Shown here piece after piece: positions 2,386 to 35,559 of a DNA stretch of 64,000 nucleotides; within the stretch, counting starts at the first letter, position 1, and every line of letters starts with the position of its first letter. Origin of the DNA: Escherichia coli. Lineage in GTDB: Bacteria; Pseudomonadota; Gammaproteobacteria; Enterobacterales; Enterobacteriaceae. The notes below the pieces were generated by a model, which was not told the origin of the DNA, did not search any database, and saw nothing but the letters and a program-made list of their open reading frames with translations. The position numbers were made by a program, and so were the translations under genes. The stretch lies in assembly GCF_003334305.1 (NCBI RefSeq), contig NZ_QOWS01000001.1. The stretch is one strand, 5' to 3'.

Positions 2386-3399
2386 TTACTCTACTGTGGA
2401 CACTGTGTGGACACTCTCGGCCTCAGTACCACCTCTTAGCGGATTAAGAGAAATGGCGTCCTGAAGGTACTCTGGCGCAAAATGAGCGTAAACCATAGTT
2501 TGCTCAATCCGCGTGTGACCTAGTATCCGTTGTAGCGTGATAATACTTCCTCCATTAATCATGAAATGAGTGGCAAAGCTGTGCCTTAGTGCATGTGTGG
2601 CTTGCCCCATTGGCAAATCCGGTTTTATTGCTTTCATTGTTCGTCTGAAGCGAGGGTAATCAGCATCAGGGAATAAAAAACCTCGTTTGTTATCCGCGAT
2701 CATTTTGGCAACAGCCTCTGAGATCGGGACGGTGCGTGGTTTGTTTGTTTTCGTTTTAACAAACGTGACGCGGTTATGGATGATATTTTCTGCTTTCAAA
2801 CGAGCTGCTTCTCCCCAACGTGCTCCTGTACTCAGGCAAAGAATCGCAATCTTTTTATTGTCGCCGTCAAGTGCTGCAAGCAGTAAGGCAATTTCTTCCT
2901 GTGTTAGATAGCCTGTTTCTGGTTTTTCCTCCTTAAGCCTTTTTGTCCCTCTGATAGGGTGCTCACCAAAGAATAACTCCGCTTCAATCAGGGCTGTAAA
3001 CATGCCGCTAATACATGTTAAATCACGATTGATACTCGAAGGTTTAATACCCTGACTTCTTCGGGTGGCGCAGTACTGGCTGATAAGCGATTTCGTAATT
3101 TGAAATGCGCATGGGTCATTCGTTATTTTTGTGAAGATTTCAATTTTTCCAAGATTAGATTTCCCATGCTCTTCGTGTTTACCCTTTAAATCCCACCAGA
3201 TCTGTGTCAGCTCCGACAGACGTCGCTTGTCTGTTGGTTTTGATAGCCATTCTTTATTGTGGTGGTTGTACAACGTGTATTTCTCGAAAGCGACAGCTTC
3301 GCTTTTCTTATCAAACTTCCTACGGATGCGTTTTCCATTACGTCCAGTAGGGCGGATGTCCACTTCATATCGACCATCATCGAGTTTTTTGATTGCCAT
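2386..3399 (-). CDS. int: tyrosine integrase (P2 Int-like, 337 aa)
   Basis: 337 aa as in P2 Int; C-terminal HxxR…Y catalytic region (ATHALRHSFATHF…MVYAHF); adjacent to attL. Confidence 0.9.
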   Translation of the reverse strand: MAIKKLDDGRYEVDIRPTGRNGKRIRRKFDKKSEAVAFEKYTLYNHHNKEWLSKPTDKRRLSELTQIWWDLKGKHEEHGKSNLGKIEIFTKITNDPCAFQITKSLISQYCATRRSQGIKPSSINRDLTCISGMFTALIEAELFFGEHPIRGTKRLKEEKPETGYLTQEEIALLLAALDGDNKKIAILCLSTGARWGEAARLKAENIIHNRVTFVKTKTNKPRTVPISEAVAKMIADNKRGFLFPDADYPRFRRTMKAIKPDLPMGQATHALRHSFATHFMINGGSIITLQRILGHTRIEQTMVYAHFAPEYLQDAISLNPLRGGTEAESVHTVSTVE

Positions 3400-4385: not shown

Positions 4386-4882
4386 CAGTGATGACGCTCA
4401 ATCTCGTTGAAAAACAGCCAGCAGCTATGCGCCGGATAATTGGTAAGCATCTTGCCGTTCCTCGCTGGCAGGATACATGTGATTATTATAATCAGATGAT
4501 GGAGCGCGAACGGTTAACGGTTTGCTTCCATGCTCAGTTAAAACAGCGTCACGCAACGATGTGTTTTGAAGAAATGAACGACGTCGAACGTGAACGACTG
4601 GTATGTGCAATTGATGAATTGCGTGGTGCATTCTCAAAACGCCGTCAGGTTGGCGCAAGTGAGTATGCATATATTAGTTTTTTAACAGTCAGTCAGCGTC
4701 GTACTTTATTTATGCATGCCGGATTGACTGAAAAAGAATTCAACCAGCCATACTGGCGAATTAATGAAGAGTCATGTTACTGGCGTGATGCTTTATTCCG
4801 TGCATTACGTGAATTATTCAGTCTGTTTGAGTATGCACCGACAATTCTGACGTCGGTAAAACCGGAGCAATATCTGCATTAA
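4376..4882 (+). CDS. B: replication protein B (helicase-loader-like)
   Basis: 168-aa ORF in the P2 gene B position and of the same size class (P2 B ~166 aa). Confidence 0.7.
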   Translation: MEMTVMTLNLVEKQPAAMRRIIGKHLAVPRWQDTCDYYNQMMERERLTVCFHAQLKQRHATMCFEEMNDVERERLVCAIDELRGAFSKRRQVGASEYAYISFLTVSQRRTLFMHAGLTEKEFNQPYWRINEESCYWRDALFRALRELFSLFEYAPTILTSVKPEQYLH

Positions 4883-4912
4883 GTAATTAACCAGAGTTTT
4901 TAACGCACTTAA

Positions 4913-5170
4913 TTGTGCGGGGCTTCTTTTTGCCTGGAGAAAGTTATGCATACAGTTTCTGAAAATCAGTGCGGTATATACGCATTACTGCTGCAACAGG
5001 CCAGAACCGAAGCACAGGCCGACGCTGCGACGCGCTTTTCTTCTCATCTTGATGCCATGATTCGCCACATCACAAAGGCGGAGTTATCCCGCGTGGAGAT
5101 AGTCGAGCTGCTCAGTCAGGAGTCGGAAAAATTTCACAATATCGGATTGTCTCGCGGGGAGGTGCTTTGA
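4913..5170 (+). CDS. early-operon hypothetical protein (P2 orf80 position)
   Basis: 85-aa ORF, translationally coupled to the next gene (overlapping stop/start). Confidence 0.45.
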
Positions 5171-5472
5171 TGTTCTGTTCTCGTGCAGTTGTATTACTGA
5201 ATAACGCCTTAAAAATCGCCGTTATGAAAAATGGCGATTTGTCTCTTATTCAACTTGGTCTTGATAAAGAAAAACGCGAAATAACTGAATCTGTTATCGC
5301 GATTTATCAGAGTGAATTAAACCTCCTGTCTGATGTGGTCAATTTACTTGTTAAACGCGCTGTATTTCACAAGCAAATTTCCTCCGTGGATGAACTGACG
5401 AAATTAACGACAGAAATCGCCAGCTATTGCGCTGATGAATTTAAAAAACTGAACGACAAAAGGAACTGGTAA
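5167..5472 (+). CDS. early-operon hypothetical protein (P2 orf81 position)
   Basis: 101-aa ORF; overlapping stop/start with neighbours on both sides. Confidence 0.5.
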
Positions 5473-5696
5473 TGCCGGACAACGTAGATTTTATTCAGGA
5501 ACAACAGGCTGAATTACTGGAGCGCCAGATTAACGCGGCAAGGGTAAAACATTGCGGTGCTTCTGCGCTGGTTTGCGAAGAGTGTGACGCGCCAATACCT
5601 GCTGCCCGTCGTGCGGCTTACCCGTCAGCCACGCGTTGTGTTTCCTGTCAGTCAGTCTTTGAAGCAAAAAACAAACATTACCGGAGAACGGCATGA
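5472..5696 (+). CDS. TraR/DksA-family C4 zinc-finger protein (P2 orf82 position)
   Basis: 74 aa with a CxxC-N17-CxxC arrangement (CEECDAP…RCVSCQ), the C4-type zinc finger of TraR/DksA-like proteins. Confidence 0.6.
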   Translation: MPDNVDFIQEQQAELLERQINAARVKHCGASALVCEECDAPIPAARRAAYPSATRCVSCQSVFEAKNKHYRRTA

Positions 5697-5968
5697 GTAT
5701 TCGTATTGAAATTGGCGAACGTTATGTCGTTACCAGTGACAGCTTTCAGTTTATTCTCCACGAGAAAAAGAGAGCGGAAAGCGGTAAAAACGCCGGTCAG
5801 GAATGGCTGGCGGTGGTTGGTTATTACCCGAAATTAAGCCAGCTCGTTTCAGGCCTGATGCATCACGATATTCTGACCGGAAGCGCAAAGTCTTTTGCTG
5901 ATTTAAACGTGCAGGTTGAGCAACTCAGCAAGCGTTGTTCAGAGGCTTTTGGCTCATATGGCCGTTAA
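5693..5968 (+). CDS. early-operon hypothetical protein (P2 orf83 position)
   Basis: 91-aa ORF overlapping the start of gene A. Confidence 0.45.
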   Translation: MSIRIEIGERYVVTSDSFQFILHEKKRAESGKNAGQEWLAVVGYYPKLSQLVSGLMHHDILTGSAKSFADLNVQVEQLSKRCSEAFGSYGR

Positions 5969-8243
5969 AGCCTCCGGGCGTTTTGTCCCTCCGTCAGCAT
6001 TTGCCGCAGGCACCGGTAAGATGTTTACCGGTGCTTATGCATGGAACGCGCCACGCGAGGCCGTCGGGCGCGAAAGACCCCTTACACGTGACGAGATGCG
6101 TCAGATGCAAGGTGTTTTATCCACGATTAACCGCCTGCCTTACTTTTTGCGCTCGCTGTTTACTTCACGCTATGACTACATCCGGCGCAATAAAAGCCCG
6201 GTGCACGGGTTTTATTTCCTCACATCCACTTTTCAGCGTCGTTTATGGCCGCGCATTGAGCGTGTGAATCAGCGCCATGAAATGAACACCGACGCGTCGT
6301 TGCTGTTTCTGGCAGAGCGTGACCACTATGCGCGCCTGCCGGGAATGAATGACAAGGAGCTGAAAAAGTTTGCCGCCCGTATCTCATCGCAGCTTTTCAT
6401 GATGTATGAGGAACTCAGCGATGCCTGGGTGGATGCACATGGCGAAAAAGAATCGCTGTTTACGGATGAGGCGCAGGCTCACCTCTATGGTCATGTTGCT
6501 GGCGCTGCACGTGCTTTCAATATTTCCCCGCTTTACTGGAAAAAATACCGTAAAGGACAGATGACCACGAGGCAGGCATATTCTGCCATTGCCCGTCTGT
6601 TTAACGATGAGTGGTGGACTCATCAGCTCAAAGGCCAGCGTATGCGCTGGCATGAGGCGTTACTGATTGCTGTCGGGGAGGTGAATAAAGACCGTTCTCC
6701 TTATGCCAGTAAACATGCCATTCGTGATGTGCGTGCACGCCGCCAGGCAAATCTGGAATTTCTTAAATCGTGTGACCTTGAAAACAGGGAAACCGGCGAG
6801 CGCATCGACCTTATCAGTAAGGTGATGGGCAGTATTTCTAATCCTGAAATTCGCCGGATGGAGCTGATGAACACCATTGCCGGTATTGAGCGTTACGCCG
6901 CCGCAGAGGGTGATGTGGGGATGTTTATCACGCTTACCGCGCCTTCAAAGTATCACCCGACACGTCAGGTCGGAAAAGGCGAAAGTAAAACCGTCCAGCT
7001 AAATCACGGCTGGAACGATGAGGCATTTAATCCAAAGGATGCGCAGCGTTATCTCTGCCATATCTGGAGCCTGATGCGCACGGCATTCAAAGATAATGAT
7101 TTACAGGTCTACGGTTTGCGTGTCGTCGAGCCACACCACGACGGAACGCCGCACTGGCATATGATGCTTTTTTGTAATCCACGCCAGCGTAACCAGATTA
7201 TCGAAATCATGCGTCGCTATGCGCTCAAAGAGGATGGCGACGAAAGAGGAGCCGCGCGAAACCGTTTTCAGGCAAAACACCTTAACCAGGGCGGTGCTGC
7301 GGGGTATATCGCGAAATACATCTCAAAAAACATCGATGGCTATGCACTGGATGGTCAGCTCGATAACGATACCGGCAGACCGCTGAAAGACACTGCTGCG
7401 GCTGTTACCGCATGGGCGTCAACGTGGCGCATCCCACAATTTAAAACGGTTGGTCTGCCGACAATGGGGGCTTACCGTGAACTACGCAAATTGCCTCGCG
7501 GCGTCAGCATTGCTGATGAGTTTGACGAGCGCGTCGAGGCTGCACGCGCCGCCGCAGACAGTGGTGATTTTGCGTTGTATATCAGCGCGCAGGGTGGGGC
7601 AAATGTCCCGCGCGATTGTCAGACTGTCAGGGTCGCCCGTAGTCCGTCGGATGAAGTTAACGAGTACGAGGAAGAAGTCGAGAGAGTGGTCGGCATTTAC
7701 GCGCCGCATCTCGGCGCGCGTCATATTCATATCACCAGAACGACGGACTGGCGCATTGTGCCGAAAGTTCCGGTCGTTGAGCCTCTGACTTTAAAAAGCG
7801 GCATCGCCGCGCCTCGGAGTCCTGTCAATAACTGTGGAAAGCTCACCGGTGGTGATACTTCGTTACCGGCTCCCACACCTTCTGAACACGCCGCAGCAGT
7901 GCTTAATCTGGTTGATGACGGTGTTATCGAATGGAATGACCCGGAGGTCGTGAGGGCGCTCAGGGGCGCATTAAAATACGGGCTGAGAACACCAAATCGT
8001 CAGCAGAGAAACGGAAGCCCGTTAAAACCACATGAAATTGCACCATCGGCCAGACTGACCCGGTCGGAAAGAATGCAAATTACCCGTATCCGCGTTGACC
8101 TTGCTCAGAACGGTATCAGGCCGCAGCGATGGGAGCTTGAGGCGCTGGCGCGTGGCGCGACCGTAAATTATGACGGGAAAAAATTCACGTATCCGGTCGC
8201 TGATGAGTGGCCGGGATTCTCAACAGTAATGGCGCGGATATAA
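5958..8243 (+). CDS. A: replication initiation endonuclease A (rolling-circle initiator)
   Basis: Listed ORF is 775 aa, roughly 760 aa from the internal Met; rolling-circle Rep-type motifs are visible (HWHMMLF HUH-like motif; GAAGYIAKYISK active-site tyrosine region). Exact start uncertain (5916 or 5958). Confidence 0.85.
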   Translation: MAVKASGRFVPPSAFAAGTGKMFTGAYAWNAPREAVGRERPLTRDEMRQMQGVLSTINRLPYFLRSLFTSRYDYIRRNKSPVHGFYFLTSTFQRRLWPRIERVNQRHEMNTDASLLFLAERDHYARLPGMNDKELKKFAARISSQLFMMYEELSDAWVDAHGEKESLFTDEAQAHLYGHVAGAARAFNISPLYWKKYRKGQMTTRQAYSAIARLFNDEWWTHQLKGQRMRWHEALLIAVGEVNKDRSPYASKHAIRDVRARRQANLEFLKSCDLENRETGERIDLISKVMGSISNPEIRRMELMNTIAGIERYAAAEGDVGMFITLTAPSKYHPTRQVGKGESKTVQLNHGWNDEAFNPKDAQRYLCHIWSLMRTAFKDNDLQVYGLRVVEPHHDGTPHWHMMLFCNPRQRNQIIEIMRRYALKEDGDERGAARNRFQAKHLNQGGAAGYIAKYISKNIDGYALDGQLDNDTGRPLKDTAAAVTAWASTWRIPQFKTVGLPTMGAYRELRKLPRGVSIADEFDERVEAARAAADSGDFALYISAQGGANVPRDCQTVRVARSPSDEVNEYEEEVERVVGIYAPHLGARHIHITRTTDWRIVPKVPVVEPLTLKSGIAAPRSPVNNCGKLTGGDTSLPAPTPSEHAAAVLNLVDDGVIEWNDPEVVRALRGALKYGLRTPNRQQRNGSPLKPHEIAPSARLTRSERMQITRIRVDLAQNGIRPQRWELEALARGATVNYDGKKFTYPVADEWPGFSTVMARI

Positions 8244-8599
8244 TGACAAAGATTCACAAAGTAAAGCTGCACGCAAGATATTTCAACCTTGTGCTGGAGG
8301 AAAAAGAAACGCACAGAATTTAGGGGGATAGCCGTTATCATGTGTATGAAGCACTTGAAATGTATCTGCATCACTTGGGAGTGTGTCAACGGGGAATTTC
8401 CATCTATGTGATTTTTTGAGAGCAATGCAGTGAAGATAAAGATACTTATTATAAATCAATGTGATAGATGGTGCCTCGCAAACGTAAATGATAGTTTTGA
8501 AGCTTCAGGGCTGATGTCGTTCATAAGACTATGTTTACGCTATCATTTATGATAAAAATAATTAATTTTTATCATAAAGATTCAACAGAGGATATGTTG

Positions 8600-10105
8600 A
8601 TGAATCAACTAAAATCAATGAATATCAATAAGTTACTTTTGGATGTTGATAACCCTCGTTTCCCGACGTCAGCAGAAAATCAGCGTGATGCTATTGCCAA
8701 GATGCTTGACTTGCAGTACGACCGCATTTATCGCTTGGCTAAAGATATTGCTTCGAAAGGTTTAGATCCGTCTGAAAACATATTAGTTTATCCTAGTGAA
8801 GAGGAATCTGGCTTTTTCGTCGTTGCTGAAGGTAATCGTCGAGTTACAGCCCTTAAACTTTTACACTCTCCTAGACTTGCACCAACAGAAAAAGCACGGA
8901 AAGCTTTTGAAAAACTTAAGATTACTCAGCTTAAAGATATTAATGTTATAGATAACTGCGTTCTTTTTGACGATGATGAATATGAGCATTGGGTCAATTT
9001 AAAGCATACTGGTCAAAATGCTGGAGTTGGAAGAGTTGAATGGACTGCAACAGAAAAAGCACGACATCTGGCTAGGATGGGTAAGCAGTCATTTGGTAAT
9101 CAAATACTTACATTTATAGAGTTCAATACTGATTTATATAAAGAGATAATTGCTAAAAAAAGACTTTTAAAAATCACAAACATCACGCGTCTTTTTGGTG
9201 ATTTAAAGGTGAGGGATTATTTTAATTTAAAAAGCATTAATGGAGTTCTATACTCATATCAGCCTTATGAACGTTTTTGTGCACAATTAAAAAATATTTT
9301 AGATGTAATGATTGAAGAGGATGATAAAGGTAAGGCTTGTTTTACTGTTAATAGGATTCGTAGCCAAGATGACAGGGTTACATTTATTATTGAACAAAAA
9401 ATAAAACCTTCAGAATCTCTTTTAGATAAGCCGTGGAGTTTATTAGAGCCTAAATCTTTTCTTACAGAGAAAAAACATGATTCTATTGACAAAAATGATG
9501 CATCTGTGAGTGTAAAGAAAGCAGGTCTTTCAGAAGGTGATGCCTTAAAGAATACAGGTGTGGATAAACAGGAAGATGATTATTCTAGACATGTAGGCAC
9601 AGAAGAGAGTAAATCTAAAGTTTCGGGTACGGAACAGAATAAAAACAAGGGAAAAACTCCTCCTAAAGTAGATCGTAATGTGTTGGTGCCATCTTATGTG
9701 AAATTTAATTTTAGAGGGCATAAGAAATGCTCTAGAATATTTAATGAGCTTAAGTCGCATCTGACATTTGATAACACCCCTAATGCTATCTCAATATTGT
9801 TGAGAATATTTATAGATCTCTCTGTAAGCACTTTTGTTGAAGAAAACAAGTTACAATTTAAGGAACCACATAGAACTCCAGGGCTTCATGATAAGGTTAA
9901 AATGTGTGCTAATTTCCTTCGGGAAAATAAAAAGATGACGGGGAGTCAATGTACGGCTGTAATAACTTTCTCGAGCCAAATAACTAAACATGATGGTTCA
10001 TTGCAGCAGTATGTACATAACCCACACTTAATTCCCTCAAAAGAGGCTGTCAACACTGAGTGGGATAACTTTGAGTTGTTATTAAGCCTTATTTGGAGTG
10101 AGTGA
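8600..10105 (+). CDS. ParB/Srx-fold N-terminal domain protein (~501 aa) with K/E-rich linker and uncharacterised C-terminal domain; cargo gene
   Basis: N-terminus INKLLLDVDNPRF followed by FVVAEGNRRVTALKLL, which match ParB N-domain box I and the GxRR arginine patch. Start chosen at MNQLK because AGAGGA lies 7 nt upstream. Visibly AT-rich with atypical codon usage; occupies the P2 tin/old slot. Confidence 0.7.
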   Translation: MNQLKSMNINKLLLDVDNPRFPTSAENQRDAIAKMLDLQYDRIYRLAKDIASKGLDPSENILVYPSEEESGFFVVAEGNRRVTALKLLHSPRLAPTEKARKAFEKLKITQLKDINVIDNCVLFDDDEYEHWVNLKHTGQNAGVGRVEWTATEKARHLARMGKQSFGNQILTFIEFNTDLYKEIIAKKRLLKITNITRLFGDLKVRDYFNLKSINGVLYSYQPYERFCAQLKNILDVMIEEDDKGKACFTVNRIRSQDDRVTFIIEQKIKPSESLLDKPWSLLEPKSFLTEKKHDSIDKNDASVSVKKAGLSEGDALKNTGVDKQEDDYSRHVGTEESKSKVSGTEQNKNKGKTPPKVDRNVLVPSYVKFNFRGHKKCSRIFNELKSHLTFDNTPNAISILLRIFIDLSVSTFVEENKLQFKEPHRTPGLHDKVKMCANFLRENKKMTGSQCTAVITFSSQITKHDGSLQQYVHNPHLIPSKEAVNTEWDNFELLLSLIWSE

Positions 10106-10174
10106 GATTTGTCTACATCTGGACATGGATGTCCAGAAACTGATAAACTACAAAATCAGGAATGAGAGGGATTT

Positions 10175-11059
10175 ATGAAATTTTATACTCCATTAAGATA
10201 CCCCGGCGGGAAAGGTAAGTTATCTTACTTTTTAAAAGATGTTATTGAAAAAAACTCGTTGAATGATGGAGCATATGCAGAACCTTACGCTGGTGGTGCA
10301 GGGGTGGCTTTAGAATTATTATTGGAAGAGTATGTCCGTAAAATCTATATAAATGATGCAGATTTTGCTGTTTATTCTTTTTGGTCATCTGTTGTTAGTG
10401 ATACTGATGAGCTTTGCCGACTTATTAGCCGAGCAAAGATAGATATGGATGAATGGTCTTTTCATCGCTATGTTATTTCGAATCCTTCTGAGTTTACTAA
10501 GCTTGAGGTTGGCTTTGCTGCGTTTTTCTTAAATAGAACAAATCGTTCAGGTATTCTCAAGGCGGGGGTTATAGGCGGGAAATCACAAAATGGAAAATGG
10601 AAAATGGATGTTCGCTTTAACAGGGCGGATTTAATTTCAAGAATTGAGAAGATAGCAAATTATAATCAAAGAATAGTAGTAACTAATCTGGATGCTTTGG
10701 ATTTTCTTGATGTCTTGAATTTTATGGATAATATGGGAAAGGTGGATAAAAATAAAATTCTTTTGTATTTGGATCCTCCTTACTATATTAAAGGGCAAGG
10801 GCTTTACAGGAATTTTTATGAGCATGATGATCATGTATTGGTTATGAAGAAACTCACAGAAATTAATTTCCCAAATTGGCTTGTTTCTTATGATAACGCT
10901 AAGGAAATTAAAGATATTTATAATGGATTTCCGCAAGTTGAGTATTCATTGCAATATACAGCGCATCTCAAAAAATCTGGAGAGGAAGTGATGATTTTTT
11001 CTCCTGAAATAATTATTCCTAATACCCTGAAAGGGGGCTCAATGCCAACTTGCGCCTGA
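10175..11059 (+). CDS. Dam-family (D12 class, alpha-type) N6-adenine DNA methyltransferase; cargo gene
   Basis: Motif I EPYAGGAGV (FxGxG AdoMet-binding) near the N-terminus and catalytic motif IV DPPY (YLDPPYY) about 160 aa later, the alpha-class order seen in Dam. AT-rich, 70 bp downstream of the ParB-like gene on the same strand. Confidence 0.8.
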   Translation: MKFYTPLRYPGGKGKLSYFLKDVIEKNSLNDGAYAEPYAGGAGVALELLLEEYVRKIYINDADFAVYSFWSSVVSDTDELCRLISRAKIDMDEWSFHRYVISNPSEFTKLEVGFAAFFLNRTNRSGILKAGVIGGKSQNGKWKMDVRFNRADLISRIEKIANYNQRIVVTNLDALDFLDVLNFMDNMGKVDKNKILLYLDPPYYIKGQGLYRNFYEHDDHVLVMKKLTEINFPNWLVSYDNAKEIKDIYNGFPQVEYSLQYTAHLKKSGEEVMIFSPEIIIPNTLKGGSMPTCA

Positions 11060-11207
11060 TTTTACTTATTTTTTGTCAGTAAGTAATTAGTTTGGTGCAT
11101 TTATTTGCATTCATTTTTAAATGCCAGTTCTGGTATCTAACATCAGTGCTGGCGCATTCTAACCATTACTGCTGCACTGCATTTAAAGCCCTGCATGAAG
11201 CGGGCGG

Positions 11208-11226
11208 GCGAGGCGGGGAAAGCACT
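11208..11226. other. cos cohesive-end site (GGCGAGGCGGGGAAAGCAC)
   Basis: 19-nt sequence matching my recollection of the P2 cohesive end, in the expected place between the A-side cargo and portal gene Q. Confidence 0.6.
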
Positions 11227-11393: not shown

Positions 11394-12428
11394 TCAGCCG
11401 TTGTCAGTGTCCAGTGAGTAGTTTTTAAAGCGGATGACCTCCTGACCGAGCCAGCCGTTTATCTCGCGGATCCTGTCCTGTAACGGGATAAGCTCATTGC
11501 GGACAAAGACCTTTGCCACTTTCTCAATATCACCCAGCGACCCGACGTTCTCCGGCTTGCCCCCCATCAACTGAAAGGGGATGCGGTGCGCGTCCAGCAG
11601 GTCAGTGGCGCTGGCTTTTTTGATATTAAAAAAATCGTCCTTCGTCGCTACTTCACTGAGGGGGATAATTTTAATGCCGTCAGCTTTCCCCTGTGGCGCA
11701 TAGAGAAACAGATTTTTAAAGTTGTTGCGGCCTTTCGACTTAACCATGTTTTCGCGAAGCATTTCGATATCGTTGCGATCCTGCACGGCATCGGTGACGT
11801 ACATGATGTATCCGGCATGGGCGCCATTTTCGTAATACTTGCGGCGGAACAGCGTGGCCGACTCATTCAGCCAGGCAGAGTTAAGGGCGCTGAGATATTC
11901 CGGCAGGCCGTACAGCTCCTGATTAATATCCGGCTCCAGCAGGTGAAACACGGAGCCGGGCGCGAAAGGTGTCGGCTCATGGAAGGACGGCACCCACCAG
12001 TAAACATCCTCTTCCACGCCACGGCGGGTATATTTTGCCGGTGAGGTTTCCAGTCTGATGACCTTACCGGTGGTGCTGTAACGCTTTTCCAGAAACGCAT
12101 TACCGAACACCAGAAAATCCAGCACAAAGCGGCTGAAATCCTGCTGGGAAAGCCACGGATGCGGAATAAACGTTGAAGCCAGAATATTGCGTTTAACGTA
12201 AATCGGCGAGCTGTGATGCACGGCAGCACGCAGGCTTTTTGCCAGACCGGTAAAGCTGACCGGCGGCTCATACCATCTGCCGTTACTGATGCACTCGACG
12301 TAATCCAGAATGTCACGGCGGTCGAGTACCGGCACCGGCTCGCCAAAGGTGAATGCCTCCATTTTCGGGGCGCTGGCGGTCATTGTTTTTGCCGCAGGTT
12401 GCGGTGTTTTCCCTTTTTTCTTGCTCAT
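11394..12428 (-). CDS. Q: portal protein Q (344 aa)
   Basis: Exactly the P2 Q length; first late gene beside cos, on the opposite strand to the P O N M operon, as in P2. Confidence 0.9.
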   Translation of the reverse strand: MSKKKGKTPQPAAKTMTASAPKMEAFTFGEPVPVLDRRDILDYVECISNGRWYEPPVSFTGLAKSLRAAVHHSSPIYVKRNILASTFIPHPWLSQQDFSRFVLDFLVFGNAFLEKRYSTTGKVIRLETSPAKYTRRGVEEDVYWWVPSFHEPTPFAPGSVFHLLEPDINQELYGLPEYLSALNSAWLNESATLFRRKYYENGAHAGYIMYVTDAVQDRNDIEMLRENMVKSKGRNNFKNLFLYAPQGKADGIKIIPLSEVATKDDFFNIKKASATDLLDAHRIPFQLMGGKPENVGSLGDIEKVAKVFVRNELIPLQDRIREINGWLGQEVIRFKNYSLDTDNG

Positions 12429-32804: not shown

Positions 32805-33020
32805 TTTCATTGTCCTTTATGCCAGCATGCCGCACATGCGCGTACAAGTCGCTATATCACTGACACGACAAAAGAGCGTTATCATCAGTGCCAGAACGTG
32901 AATTGCAGCGCCACGTTCATCACTTATGAGTCGGTACAGCGATACATCGTGAAGCCGGGAGAAGTCCACGCCGTAAGGCCGCACCCGTTGCCATCAGGGC
33001 AGCAAATTATGTGGATGTAA
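32805..33020 (+). CDS. ogr: late gene transcriptional activator Ogr (72 aa, zinc finger)
   Basis: MFHCPLCQHAAHARTSRYITDTTKERYHQCQNVNCSATF… with a CxxC…CxxxxC zinc finger; 72 aa from the internal Met of the listed ORF. Confidence 0.9.
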   Translation, partial: FHCPLCQHAAHARTSRYITDTTKERYHQCQNVNCSATFITYESVQRYIVKPGEVHAVRPHPLPSGQQIMWM

Positions 33021-33030
33021 TTACAAACAG

Positions 33031-33057
33031 AAAGCCCCTCAGTCGAGGGGCTTTTTT
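33031..33057 (+). terminator. rho-independent terminator after ogr
   Basis: GC-rich hairpin GCCCCTC-AGTC-GAGGGGC followed by TTTTTT. Confidence 0.75.
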
Positions 33058-33121
33058 GTCGATGTGGTCAATGTGTGGACGTGACCAGAAATAAATCCTT
33101 TTATTTCAATTTATTGTACGT

Positions 33122-33148
33122 AAAAAATAAGCCCGTGTAAGGGAGATT
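33122..33148. repeat. attR core (27 bp), coincident with the 3' end of cyaR
   Basis: Exact direct repeat of 2280..2306. Confidence 0.85.
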
Positions 33149-33208
33149 ACACAGGCTAAGGAGGTGGTTCCTGGTACAGCTAGCATTTTATGGGTTATGT
33201 TTTTCAGC
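33122..33208 (-). ncRNA. cyaR: CyaR (RyeE) Hfq-dependent sRNA, 87 nt
   Basis: The reverse complement reads GCTGAAAAACATAACCCATAAAATGCTAGCTGTACCAGGAACCACCTCCTTAGCCTGTGTAATCTCCCTTACACGGGCTTATTTTTT, which matches the CyaR sequence as I recall it, including the terminator hairpin and U-tail; lies between ogr and yegQ. Confidence 0.8.
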
Positions 33209-34756: not shown

Positions 34757-35053
34757 TTAGCTCCAGTGTAAATGTCTGGTGGCGTCCTGGTTTTGGTTAA
34801 GGATACGAATGACGATAATTTCCCCTGGTGATTGCAGGAAATAAATGACGTGGCGTTCAAAAGGAAGAACAAAAATACCTTCGCCTAATTCAGGTCTGGG
34901 CGTACCTATATTATTGTTACTCAGAATCTGGAGAACGTCTGAAAGATGTTCCACATATCTGTCGGCTTGTGGTTCGCCGAAATGGTGATAGCTGTAATAC
35001 CAGATGCCTTCTAAATCCTCATTGGCTTTTGGCATGAGTTTAATAATACGCAC
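34757..35053 (-). CDS. ParE/RelE-superfamily toxin (type II TA)
   Basis: 98-aa basic protein immediately downstream of, and abutting, an RHH antitoxin-like gene; same size class as ParE toxins. Confidence 0.6.
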   Translation of the reverse strand: MRIIKLMPKANEDLEGIWYYSYHHFGEPQADRYVEHLSDVLQILSNNNIGTPRPELGEGIFVLPFERHVIYFLQSPGEIIVIRILNQNQDATRHLHWS

Positions 35054-35054
35054 A

Positions 35055-35306
35055 TTATTTCCTTATCCCTGCTTTCACCTTCCGTAAGAACGCGTCCTTT
35101 TCCCACGGCTGAGCTTCACCACTACTCAACCCTTCTGCGAGCATGTCACGTAACGCTTGCAGGCGAGACTCTGCTTGCTTTTCTCGAAGTAATCGCAGTG
35201 ACTCACGGATCACTTCGCTTTGGGTGCGATAGTCGCCGGATTCAATTAAGGACTCGATAAATTCACGCAACTCATCGCCGAGATCAACCGTCATCGTTCT
35301 GGCCAT
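35055..35306 (-). CDS. ParD-like ribbon-helix-helix antitoxin (83 aa)
   Basis: MARTMTVDLGDELREFIESLIESGDYRTQSEVIRESLRLLRE is a classic RHH/ParD (COG3609-like) N-terminus; its stop abuts the toxin start. Confidence 0.65.
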   Translation of the reverse strand: MARTMTVDLGDELREFIESLIESGDYRTQSEVIRESLRLLREKQAESRLQALRDMLAEGLSSGEAQPWEKDAFLRKVKAGIRK

Positions 35307-35559
35307 TTTACGCCCGCCTGTAAGTAAAAATCTTACATCAGTGTATGTCATAAACCGGATAGCGTCACGAAAGTATTAGAAGATATTTTGGCACATGAAC
35401 ATGTTCAGGAGGATAAGTATGGGATGGTAAACAAAGAAAGCACAACGAGTGCTCGTCAGTGCCCACTATTTTAATGGCGGCGGTTACTCTTAATTATTAA
35501 TAACTAAGCGTTATTTGGATATAAAGCCGGACGCCAACAACCCACGCCCGGCATCGTAA

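What the first reader, a model, noticed from the sequence alone, without database searches (positions are those of the whole stretch)
8244..11100. AT-rich two-gene cargo (ParB/Srx-fold protein + Dam-family adenine methyltransferase) in the P2 tin/old slot: candidate undescribed defence or epigenetic system
The interval between replication gene A and cos is where P2 carries tin and old, and where P2-like phages are known to swap anti-phage cargo. Here it holds two co-oriented genes, 70 bp apart, both visibly AT-rich against the GC-balanced prophage backbone. The first has a clear ParB N-domain signature (…LLLDVDNPRF… then FVVAEGNRRVTALKLL), a K/E-rich disordered linker and a ~120-aa C-terminal domain I cannot place. 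The second is an alpha-class Dam-like methyltransferase (EPYAGGAGV … YLDPPYY). I do not recognise a ParB-domain effector paired with a separate Dam-like methylase as a named defence system. One reading is a restriction-modification-like pair, with the methylase marking self and the ParB-fold protein as nuclease or DNA sensor. Alternatives are an anti-restriction methylase with a partner, or an epigenetic module controlling prophage behaviour.
Basis: partly seen in the sequence, partly recalled or inferred. Interest (0 to 1): 0.85.

Follow-up and report, generated by a model that had tools for sequence, protein, structure and literature searches.

The report
PD-λ-5 phage defence system, prototype copy
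The two AT-rich genes are real, but they are the already published and experimentally validated anti-phage system PD-λ-5 (Vassallo et al. 2022), apparently the copy it was first cloned from, so the locus is known even though its mechanism is still unsolved.

Summary
Two co-oriented genes lie 69 bp apart: A at 8600-10105 (501 aa) and B at 10175-11059 (294 aa). GC is 31-37% against 50-60% in the flanks. They sit in a P2-like prophage between replication gene A and cos (11207-11225).

The claim that the pair is undescribed fails. PADLOC models place them full length in PD-Lambda-5_A (E 6e-168) and PD-Lambda-5_B (E 3e-121). The exact B sequence carries accession RCQ13838.1, the gene Vassallo et al. 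2022 list for PD-λ-5 from E. coli ECOR7 (orangutan). The DNA is 100% identical to E. coli A7 (orangutan). That paper describes the pair as "ParB/HEPN, methyltransferase". It protected against 9 of 10 phages and had to be cloned in a Δmrr host.

New here:
- A is almost never found without B, in 71 of 72 evaluable loci across Bacteria and Archaea.
- B-type methylases pair about equally often with an OLD-like ATPase instead of A.

Most likely mechanism (inferred, about 0.45): B methylates self DNA, and the ParB-like sensor of A fires its HEPN effector on unmethylated DNA.

Novelty: already known. Interest is low.

The parts
8243..8324 (+). Remnant (26 codons) of the P2 orf91 / DUF3850 gene. It marks the left edge of the swapped cargo.
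   Evidence: RefSeq annotates it as a frameshifted, incomplete DUF3850 pseudogene at the same place in E. coli A7. Intact orf91/DUF3850 follows gpA in phages L-413C and Wphi. Sequence read.
8325..8599 (+). AT-rich non-coding leader of the cargo. It holds a promoter-like site TTTACG-17-AATAAT at 8534-8562 and the RBS AGAGGA.
   Evidence: Promoter-like sites are not enriched over shuffles (13 found against 10 +/- 3.5), so this is weak evidence. The fragment Vassallo et al. cloned, with the native promoter, starts 272 bp upstream of gene A, roughly window 8328.
8600..10105 (+). PD-λ-5 gene A (501 aa), a ParB/Srx-HEPN fusion protein. Residues 1-125 (8600-8974) form the ParB/Srx domain, with invariant EGNRR at 8828-8842. 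Residues 126-291 (8975-9472) form a helical middle domain with the KHTGxNxG motif. Residues 292-351 (9473-9652) are a disordered K/E/D-rich linker. Residues 352-501 (9653-10102) form the HEPN-fold domain, with invariant R402 and H473 (10016-10018).
10118..10137 (.). Inverted repeat TCTGGACAT-GG-ATGTCCAGA in the A-B spacer. It overlaps a promoter-like site, TGGACA-18-TAAACT with a TG extension, at 10120-10149.
   Evidence: The core GACATGGATGTC is kept in relatives L082 and L083, and approximately in L002, which share 68-88% protein identity. Its function is unknown; it may act as an operator or hairpin tuning B expression.
10175..11059 (+). PD-λ-5 gene B (294 aa), a D12-class (Dam-family, alpha-type) N6-adenine DNA methyltransferase. 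The AdoMet motif AGGAGV is at 10289-10306 and the catalytic DPPY at 10772-10783.
   Evidence: PADLOC PDLC04018 PD-Lambda-5_B, E 2.6e-121. Pfam PF02086, E 5.7e-16. The exact sequence carries accession RCQ13838.1, which Vassallo et al. list as the second PD-λ-5 gene of ECOR7. D200, P201, P202, Y203, G40 and G41 are invariant in 14 homologues from distant phyla.
11060..11206 (.). AT-rich tail of the cargo, up to cos.
   Evidence: No convincing intrinsic terminator was found on the + strand.
11207..11225 (+). P2-type cos site GGCGAGGCGGGGAAAGCAC, the right boundary of the hotspot.
   Evidence: Single exact match in the window, none in 100 shuffles. It aligns with the end of the linear L-413C genome record. 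That this string is the P2 cohesive end is recalled from memory.

Best explanation
Identity (near certain): this is the two-gene anti-phage system PD-λ-5 of Vassallo et al. 2022. It sits in defence hotspot 1 (the tin/old slot) of a P2-like prophage and is essentially the prototype copy from E. coli ECOR7.

Mechanism (inferred, about 0.45):
1. Gene B is an active Dam-family N6-adenine methyltransferase that marks the host chromosome at an as yet unknown motif.
2. Gene A is the effector. Its N-terminal ParB/Srx-like domain (invariant EGNRR box) and helical middle domain act as a nucleotide-dependent DNA sensor or clamp. This would resemble ParB/KorB/Noc CTPases or the DUF262 NTPases of GmrSD, BrxU and SspE.
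3. When this sensor meets DNA lacking B's methyl mark (incoming phage DNA), it switches on the C-terminal HEPN-fold domain across the flexible linker. The HEPN domain then cleaves RNA, and the ParB fold may also nick DNA. Phage development stops, possibly at the cost of the cell.
4. Self DNA is spared because it is methylated.

In short, the pair works like a restriction-modification system whose restriction half is a ParB-HEPN fusion rather than a classical restriction endonuclease.
For: Identity:
- Full-length PADLOC hits to PD-Lambda-5_A and _B.
- The exact B sequence carries accession RCQ13838.1, the accession given for PD-λ-5 from ECOR7.
- The published gene span is 2461 bp; here it is 2460 bp.
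- The 2857-bp region is 100% identical to E. coli A7 from orangutan faeces, USA. ECOR7 is also from an orangutan, USA.
- The genomic context is the same in every copy examined: Phage_GPA, 501-aa gene, 294-aa gene, portal.

[quoted passage not shown] Protection was stronger against T-even phages than against λvir or T7. Adsorption was unaffected. The host had to be MG1655 with the mrr region deleted. Mrr restricts certain N6-methyladenine DNA (established knowledge), so this implies B methylates the chromosome in vivo.

Mechanism:
- All D12 catalytic and AdoMet motifs of B are invariant.
- A combines a ParB/Srx fold with a HEPN fold.
- G78, N79, R80 and R81 are conserved in 99 of 99 sequences, H473 in 95 of 95 aligned, and R402 in 96 of 97.
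- Seeding on A, a B-type methylase lies immediately downstream on the same strand in 71 of 72 evaluable loci, from Proteobacteria to Micrarchaeota. The genes often overlap by a few bases.
- Seeding on B, 29 of 68 loci carry A and 28 of 68 carry an OLD-like ABC-ATPase instead. Remnants of A beside an intact B occur, for example L115.
- This asymmetry, where the effector depends on the methylase but not the reverse, together with the interchangeable nuclease-type partners, is the pattern expected of a self-marking methylase with toxic restriction modules.
- ParB-HEPN fusions, and HEPN genes in operons with a ParB nuclease and a DNA methylase, were predicted to be R-M-linked in 2013 (PMC3710099).
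Against: - No biochemical or genetic dissection of PD-λ-5 was found. No solved structure was detectable by sequence.
- The HEPN domain lacks the canonical Rx4-6H arginine. Position -5 from H473 is F, L or M, so RNase activity is not assured.
- Nothing here shows that A reads methylation status, that A is toxic without B, or what B's target motif is.
- B scores below the curated Dam cut-off (46.8 against 114.85 bits), so its site is probably not GATC.
- Whether protection is abortive or direct could not be read from the text available; that information is in a figure.
- One locus (L031) has an apparently intact A next to only a 68-aa remnant of B, although another D12-like methylase lies 1.2 kb upstream.
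Confidence: 0.85

Rival explanations
1. Modification-licensed model, like SspABCD-SspE. A is inactive on its own and needs B-methylated host DNA as a platform or activator. It binds m6A sites on self DNA, which stimulates its NTPase and arms it against phage nucleic acid. Under this model A is not toxic without B; it simply does not work.
Against: The best structural matches are ParB, KorB and Noc rather than DUF262 proteins. Decayed A beside intact B, with almost no converse cases, fits a toxic A better. The same methylase family pairs with OLD-like ATPase/Toprim proteins, which look like classical restriction-type partners.
Confidence: 0.25
2. Abortive-infection or toxin-antitoxin-like model. 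A is triggered by a phage protein or by general infection stress, not by DNA methylation status. B acts as a neutraliser or regulator of A, or does a separate job such as protecting the prophage or host from other restriction systems.
For: HEPN domains are typical Abi/TA effectors (PMC3710099). The discoverers use the word 'Abi'. Protection against glucosyl-hmC T-even phages shows that a classical sequence-specific DNA cut is not required.
Against: Protection against 9 of 10 unrelated phages argues against a specific protein trigger. B keeps every catalytic residue across Bacteria and Archaea and is active in vivo, given the need for a Δmrr host. A non-catalytic antitoxin role would not demand this.
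Confidence: 0.15
3. Ordinary housekeeping pair: a ParB/KorB-type partition or regulatory protein plus an orphan Dam-like methylase controlling prophage epigenetics, with no defence role.
For: Fold similarity of the first ~290 residues to ParB, KorB and Noc. A palindrome in the A-B spacer could be an operator.
Against: A published defence phenotype exists for the identical genes. No ParA partner is present. Scores are far below the partition-family cut-offs: RepB 14.2 against 201.5 bits, and parB_part 13-16 against 58 bits in homologues. A has no Pfam hit and carries a C-terminal HEPN domain. The pair occurs on islands and prophages across phyla, not on replicons needing partition.
Confidence: 0.02

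Closest known systems
PD-λ-5 (Vassallo et al. 2022, Nat Microbiol; PADLOC and DefenseFinder 'PD-Lambda-5')
   Same: Everything tested matches: both protein families at full length, gene order and spacing, the P2 hotspot location, an exact accession match for B, and 100% DNA identity to an orangutan E. coli strain like the source strain ECOR7.
   Different: Nothing detectable. The window differs from the A7 assembly only by a 1-bp homopolymer indel in the portal gene and a few SNPs elsewhere in the prophage and flanks.
Type II/III restriction-modification systems
   Same: A catalytically intact DNA methyltransferase is tightly coupled to an effector gene. The effector depends on the methylase in genomes. 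The pair is mobile, AT-rich cargo.
   Different: A has no PD-(D/E)xK, HNH, GIY-YIG or PLD nuclease fold. It has a ParB/Srx domain plus a HEPN domain. Site-specific cleavage and host-controlled modification have not been shown.
GmrSD / BrxU / SspE (DUF262 ParB-superfamily NTPase fused to a C-terminal nuclease)
   Same: The architecture follows the same logic: an N-terminal ParB/Srx-superfamily domain with a [D/E]G-x-x-R box, followed by a C-terminal nuclease-type effector. Function is tied to DNA modification status.
Computationally predicted R-M-linked ParB/HEPN combinations (Anantharaman et al. [quoted passage not shown] Also PD-T4-2 (DUF262 protein plus HEPN protein).
   Same: The same domain vocabulary (ParB-superfamily domain, HEPN, DNA methylase) in defence contexts.
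   Different: Family-level equivalence to those HEPN clades was not tested. Here the HEPN lacks the conserved arginine. PD-T4-2 has no methylase.
EcoprrI-PrrC (type I R-M with a latent HEPN anticodon nuclease)
   Same: An R-M module is coupled to a HEPN 'second line' Abi effector. This is presumably what the discoverers mean by 'RM+Abi'.
   Different: PrrC is a separate ABC-ATPase-HEPN protein guarded by a complete type I enzyme. PD-λ-5 has only two genes and no REase.
ParB / KorB / Noc CTP-dependent DNA clamps
   Same: The fold of the N-terminal ~290 residues, and an Arg-Arg box at the equivalent position (GERR against GNRR).
   Different: There is no ParA partner and no detectable family-level sequence membership. 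The glutamate of the GERR box is replaced by an invariant asparagine. A HEPN domain takes the place of the C-terminal dimerisation domain.

Membership tests
PD-λ-5 defence system | A-type protein matching a PD-Lambda-5_A profile over its full length | tested here: met
   PDLC03998, E 5.9e-168, model positions 1-465 of 466.
PD-λ-5 defence system | B-type D12 methyltransferase matching a PD-Lambda-5_B profile | tested here: met
   PDLC04018, E 2.6e-121, positions 1-280 of 291. Pfam PF02086.
PD-λ-5 defence system | The two genes adjacent and co-oriented, A then B | tested here: met
   69-bp gap, both on the + strand. The same arrangement occurs in 71 A-seeded loci.
PD-λ-5 defence system | Sequence identity to the published prototype (ECOR7; RCQ13837.1 and RCQ13838.1) | tested here: met
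   The exact B sequence carries RCQ13838.1 (table). For A, identity is inferred from the gene span, the 501-aa length and 100% DNA identity to orangutan strain A7. The accession RCQ13837.1 itself was not displayed.
PD-λ-5 defence system | Confers phage resistance when cloned | not testable with these tools
   Reported for this sequence in PMC9519451: 9 of 10 phages affected, Δmrr host.
Type II restriction-modification system | Methyltransferase with intact AdoMet-binding and catalytic motifs | tested here: met
   AGGAGV and DPPY are present and invariant in homologues.
Type II restriction-modification system | Partner with a recognised restriction-endonuclease fold (PD-(D/E)xK, HNH, GIY-YIG, PLD) | tested here: not met
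   A has no Pfam hit. Fold searches give only ParB/Srx and HEPN.
Type II restriction-modification system | Host-controlled modification and site-specific cleavage of unmethylated DNA | not testable with these tools
   Needs phage passage experiments, methylome mapping and in-vitro assays.
ParB partition protein / KorB-type regulator | Scores above the curated family cut-offs | tested here: not met
   RepB TIGR03454: 14.2 bits against a cut-off of 201.5. parB_part TIGR00180: 13-16 bits against 58 in homologues. No Pfam ParBc hit.
ParB partition protein / KorB-type regulator | Adjacent ParA-type ATPase or partner, on a replicon needing partition | tested here: not met
   The neighbours are gpA, the methylase, cos and the portal gene, inside an integrated prophage.
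ParB/Srx superfamily (fold level) | ParB/Srx fold with a conserved Gly-x-Arg-Arg nucleotide-binding box | tested here: met
HEPN ribonucleases | HEPN four-helix fold | tested here: met
HEPN ribonucleases | Canonical R-x4-6-H catalytic motif | tested here: not met
   H473 is invariant (95 of 95). Positions -4 to -7 from it never hold a conserved Arg; the motif reads [F/L][N/H/Q]x[Y/F][V/I]H[N/S]. An invariant R402 sits on another helix. The 2013 HEPN survey lists families with 'conserved H but lacks R'.
HEPN ribonucleases | RNA cleavage activity | not testable with these tools
   Needs biochemistry.
GmrSD / SspE / BrxU (DUF262-DUF1524) | DUF262 NTPase domain with a DGQQR box | tested here: inconclusive
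GmrSD / SspE / BrxU (DUF262-DUF1524) | C-terminal DUF1524 His-Me finger nuclease | tested here: not met
   The C-terminal domain is HEPN-like.
Dam (GATC) orthologues | Score above the curated TIGR00571 cut-off | tested here: not met
   46.8 bits against 114.85. The only PDB relative is 7m6b at E 2e-12. B belongs to the D12 class but its target motif is unknown.

The most novel reading that the evidence does not exclude
Two linked readings remain open.

(1) PD-λ-5 may be a restriction-modification-like system whose restriction step is not DNA cleavage by a restriction endonuclease. Instead, a ParB-type nucleotide-dependent DNA sensor would read the absence of m6A and fire a non-canonical, arginine-less HEPN nuclease.

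(2) Its methylase may define a wider modular family. The same self-marking enzyme is paired with the ParB-HEPN protein, with an OLD-like ABC-ATPase/Toprim protein, or with both. The methylase plus OLD-like ATPase pair sits in the same P2 slot in other prophages and in 15 complete E. coli genomes. It gets only superfamily-level PADLOC hits and could be an unnamed sister defence system.
Probability: 0.3. Interest if true: 0.55.

Novelty: already known. Interest (0 to 1): 0.15.

Why it matters
As a discovery it does not matter. The locus is the published PD-λ-5 system, very likely the exact copy from which it was cloned, and annotation pipelines already recognise it.

Its remaining value is mechanistic. 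PD-λ-5 protects broadly (9 of 10 phages, including T-even phages that evade most R-M systems), yet nobody has shown how a ParB-fold/HEPN protein and a Dam-like methylase achieve this.

Three observations made here give concrete handles for that work:
- The HEPN fold has an invariant His but no catalytic Arg.
- A depends on B almost absolutely across Bacteria and Archaea.
- B is swapped between ParB-HEPN and OLD-like ATPase partners.

Tried and rejected
- A single-sequence AlphaFold run of A was useless (pLDDT 34). The alignment-based model was used instead.
- Pfam on A gave no hit even at E 10. NCBIfam gave only noise-level ParB/RepB hits.
- A PDB search by sequence with the family profile found nothing real.
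- I looked for a universally conserved third gene around 75 A-B loci and found none. The flanks hold only integrases or recombinases and, in 10 loci, an OLD-like ATPase.
- No deposited GenBank phage genome carries the cargo at ≥85% nucleotide identity; only the gpA/orf91 and cos/portal flanks match.
- Literature searches for a mechanistic study of PD-λ-5, or of ParB+HEPN+methylase systems, found only surveys and the original paper. Rousset et al. 2022 does not mention it in the text.
- I could not recover from the text whether PD-λ-5 was scored as Abi or direct immunity, because that is shown in a figure.
- The long ORF start at 8531 was rejected in favour of 8600.
- The partition/KorB reading was rejected (see rivals).
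- I did not try to infer B's recognition motif from sequence statistics, because I judged that unreliable.
Full report
1. THE OBSERVATION

The window holds two + strand ORFs in the stated interval: 8531-10105 and 10175-11059.

The first ORF most likely starts at ATG 8600, giving 501 aa. That codon follows the AGAGGA Shine-Dalgarno sequence by 7 nt. All homologues begin at the equivalent MNQ/MNx position. RefSeq and other gene callers give 501 aa. The 501-aa sequence is on record in public collections, whereas the version starting six bases earlier, at ATG 8594, is not.

The second gene encodes 294 aa, and the gap between the two genes is 69 bp.

GC content falls to 0.31-0.37 between 8250 and 11000. 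It is 0.50-0.60 in the upstream replication gene and the downstream packaging genes.

The genomic context is a P2-like (Peduovirus-type) prophage:
- It runs from the integrase (about 2386-3399) to ogr (about 32933-33151).
- It is inserted between yegR and yegQ.
- The cargo lies between the Phage_GPA replication endonuclease (5916-8243) and the P2-type cos sequence, which occurs once at 11207-11225.
- That cos position coincides with the physical end of the linear L-413C phage genome record.
- The portal gene follows on the minus strand.

2. WHAT IT IS

PADLOC profile HMMs identify both proteins over their full length:
- Protein A matches PD-Lambda-5_A (PDLC03998, E 5.9e-168).
- Protein B matches PD-Lambda-5_B (PDLC04018, E 2.6e-121).

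PD-λ-5 is one of 21 systems recovered by functional selection from E. coli fosmid libraries by Vassallo et al. (Nat Microbiol 2022, PMC9519451). Their supplementary tables describe it as "ParB/HEPN, methyltransferase". They give the source as strain ECOR7, contig QOWS01000001, proteins RCQ13837.1 and RCQ13838.1, with genes at 264599-267059.

The link to the prototype rests on four results:
- An exact-sequence look-up shows that the window's protein B is the sequence carrying accession RCQ13838.1.
- The gene span in the window (8600-11059, 2460 bp) matches the published span.
- The 2857-bp region is 100.0% identical to E. coli strain A7, isolated from orangutan faeces in the USA.
- ECOR7 is listed as coming from an orangutan in the USA.

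The window is thus the prototype PD-λ-5 locus or an indistinguishable copy. Against the A7 assembly it differs by a single homopolymer base in the portal gene and a few SNPs further along.

[quoted passage not shown] The text read here does not say which four, so PD-λ-5's slot is taken from the sequence itself.

In complete E. coli genomes the locus is rare: 34 of 5426, always chromosomal and single copy. No deposited phage genome carries it. GenBank Peduoviruses match only the flanks and carry other cargo in the slot, such as Fic/VbhT, DUF4209 or an intact orf91/DUF3850.

3. WHAT IS KNOWN EXPERIMENTALLY (from the paper, not tested here)

- The pair was cloned with its native promoter on a low-copy plasmid.
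- Protection was stronger against T-even phages than against λvir or T7.
- It did not affect adsorption.
- It had to be studied in MG1655 deleted for the mrr region.
- Their HHpred support was strong for ParBc (96% probability) but weak for HEPN (DUF4145 at 36%, RiboL-PSP HEPN at 8%).
- I found no later mechanistic or structural study. Later papers only count the system in surveys. The PDB holds no detectable relative of A by sequence.

4. ANATOMY OF PROTEIN A (new analysis)

I built an alignment of 45 homologues sharing 28-78% identity with A. It gave an AlphaFold model with mean pLDDT 82. The model has two well-defined halves joined by a disordered K/E/D/S-rich linker, residues 292-351.

Conservation across 99 family members from many phyla:
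- G78, N79, R80 and R81 are invariant (the EGNRR box, equivalent to GERR in ParB and DGQQR in DUF262).
- H136 and W148, within a KHTGxNxG motif, are nearly invariant.
- In the HEPN domain, E383, R402 and H473 are essentially invariant.
- The canonical HEPN R-x4-6-H arginine is absent. The motif reads [F/L][N/H/Q]x[Y/F][V/I]H[N/S].

So the HEPN fold is well supported, but RNase activity is not guaranteed. The 2013 HEPN census already lists families with "conserved H but lacks R". It also lists ParB-HEPN fusions and HEPN genes in operons with ParB nucleases and DNA methylases.

A is not an ordinary partition or KorB-type protein:
- It has no Pfam hit.
- It scores 14 bits against a 201-bit RepB cut-off.
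- Homologues score 13-16 bits against the 58-bit ParB cut-off.
- No ParA partner is nearby.

5. PROTEIN B

B is a D12-class (Dam-family) N6-adenine methyltransferase (PF02086). The AdoMet motif lies N-terminal (AGGAGV, residues 39-44) and DPPY lies at residues 200-203, which is the alpha-class order.

These motifs and about 50 other positions are invariant in homologues from Proteobacteria, Firmicutes, Bacteroidota, Actinobacteria, Chloroflexi, Bdellovibrio and Archaea.

B scores below the curated Dam cut-off. Its only PDB relative by sequence is 7m6b at E 2e-12. It is therefore not a GATC Dam orthologue, and its target site is unknown.

6. CO-OCCURRENCE

Seeding on A. I scanned one genome per species (GTDB-based collection) with the A alignment and kept 80 loci from Bacteria and Archaea.
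- In 71 loci a close B homologue (phmmer E 1e-68 to 1e-146) lies immediately downstream on the same strand. The genes are often 4 bp apart or overlapping.
- The remaining loci are mostly contig ends or decayed copies.
- The single evaluable exception is L031. It keeps a 68-aa remnant of B and has another D12-like methylase 1.2 kb upstream.
- No third gene is universal. The flanks are rich in integrases and recombinases.

Seeding on B. I scanned IMG/VR viral contigs with the B alignment. Of 68 loci with a strong B-type methylase:
- 29 carry A.
- 28 carry an OLD-like ABC-ATPase of ~510-600 aa, with a probable Toprim domain, instead of A.
- 11 are other arrangements or contig edges, some with a remnant of A or a divergent ParB-like neighbour.

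Ten of the A-seeded loci carry all three genes.

So A depends on B, but B does not depend on A. B behaves as a shared module with interchangeable nuclease-type partners.

7. HOW IT MOST LIKELY WORKS

Shown or strongly implied:
- B is an active adenine methylase in vivo. Its catalytic motifs are intact, and cloning needed a Δmrr host. Mrr attacks certain m6A-modified DNA (established knowledge).
- The pair is sufficient for broad defence (literature).

Inferred:
- B's methylation marks self DNA.
- A's ParB-like module acts as a nucleotide-dependent DNA sensor or clamp and distinguishes unmarked DNA.
- A then activates the HEPN effector through the flexible linker, causing RNA cleavage and translational shut-off. 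The ParB fold may add nicking.

Three lines of evidence support this inference:
- The near-absolute dependence of A on B.
- The asymmetric decay pattern, with remnants of A beside intact B but essentially never the reverse.
- The exchange of A for OLD-like nucleases beside the same methylase.

Strong protection against T-even phages fits an effector that does not need to cut glucosyl-hmC DNA at specific sites. I put this mechanism at about 0.45.

Rivals:
- An SspE-like model in which methylated self DNA licenses A (about 0.25).
- A trigger-based Abi/TA model in which methylation status is not what A senses (about 0.15).
- A housekeeping ParB plus orphan Dam reading, which is effectively refuted.

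The experiments that separate these are listed under next steps. The quickest are toxicity of A without B, a catalytically dead B, and a host-controlled-modification passage test.

8. COMPARISON WITH WHAT IS KNOWN, AND VERDICT

Membership in PD-λ-5 is met on every feature I could test. The phenotype is from the literature.

The pair is RM-like in logic but fails the defining test of a recognisable restriction-endonuclease fold. It resembles GmrSD, BrxU and SspE in architecture (a ParB-superfamily NTPase-like domain plus a C-terminal nuclease domain) but lacks DUF1524. It has a HEPN fold but not the canonical motif.

Novelty: already known. Interest: low (0.15). What remains of interest is the unsolved mechanism and the side observation of a methylase plus OLD-like ATPase sister arrangement.

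Noticed in passing
L090-L092 (e.g. L092 3983-4828 methylase, 4846-6543 ATPase); L086-L105 and others; E. coli EC130 NZ_CP182198.1 1941782-1944482: Methylases of the PD-λ-5 B family are paired about as often with an OLD-like ABC-ATPase of ~510-600 aa (probable Toprim domain) as with the ParB-HEPN protein: 28 against 29 of 68 viral loci. In L092 the pair occupies the same P2 slot: gpA, methylase, ATPase, portal. It occurs in 15 of 5426 complete E. coli genomes, annotated only as 'AAA family ATPase | DNA adenine methylase'. Strain PCP07014 carries both this pair and PD-λ-5. The ATPase gets only superfamily-level PADLOC hits (HEC-04, PtuA, AriA, GajA, NsnB at E 1e-13 to 1e-22), so this may be an unnamed RM-like system.
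   Followed up: partly
L002, L005, L006, L009, L014, L019, L030, L037, L077, L078: A three-gene variant exists: ParB-HEPN, methylase and the OLD-like ATPase directly adjacent, in 10 of 71 A-seeded loci from Enterobacterales, Pseudomonas, Clostridia, Bacteroidota and Saccharibacteria. It may be the fuller 'RM+Abi' form of which the window's pair is the compact version.
   Followed up: partly
window 10118-10137: There is a perfect 9+9 inverted repeat, TCTGGACAT-GG-ATGTCCAGA, in the 69-bp spacer between the two genes. It overlaps a promoter-like TGGACA-18-TAAACT site. Its core GACATGGATGTC is conserved in relatives with 68-88% protein identity. It could be an operator or hairpin setting the effector-to-methylase ratio. 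Its function is unknown.
   Followed up: partly
window 8243-8324: A 26-codon remnant of the P2 orf91/DUF3850 (ASCH-like) gene lies immediately after gpA. RefSeq annotates it as a pseudogene in strain A7. It is a scar showing that the PD-λ-5 cargo replaced earlier content of the slot.
   Followed up: yes
window 20646-21431 (minus strand): A second AT-rich insert (GC about 0.47) lies between the tail genes S and V. It is a 261-aa predicted membrane protein on the opposite strand. It matches phrog_2407 (unknown function, E 4e-148) and has no PADLOC hit. It is probably another P2 moron of unknown role.
   Followed up: partly
window 11565 region (portal gene 11394-12428): The window has an intact 344-aa portal ORF. 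The otherwise identical E. coli A7 assembly has one C fewer in a homopolymer run and is annotated 'frameshifted'. This is probably an assembly error in A7, or the window comes from a sister assembly.
   Followed up: yes
window ~34888-35482 and ~47475-48191: Just outside the prophage, between yegQ and yegP, there is a ParD/ParE type II toxin-antitoxin pair. Further on, next to mdtA, there are three Ibs type I toxin genes. Coordinates are mapped from the A7 annotation.
   Followed up: no
L031 5956-7497 and 7304-7507: This is the one evaluable locus (Actinocorallia) where an apparently intact A homologue sits next to only a 68-aa remnant of the B methylase. A different 477-aa D12-like methylase lies 1.2 kb upstream and may substitute for B. 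This locus is a possible natural test of whether A needs B.
   Followed up: partly
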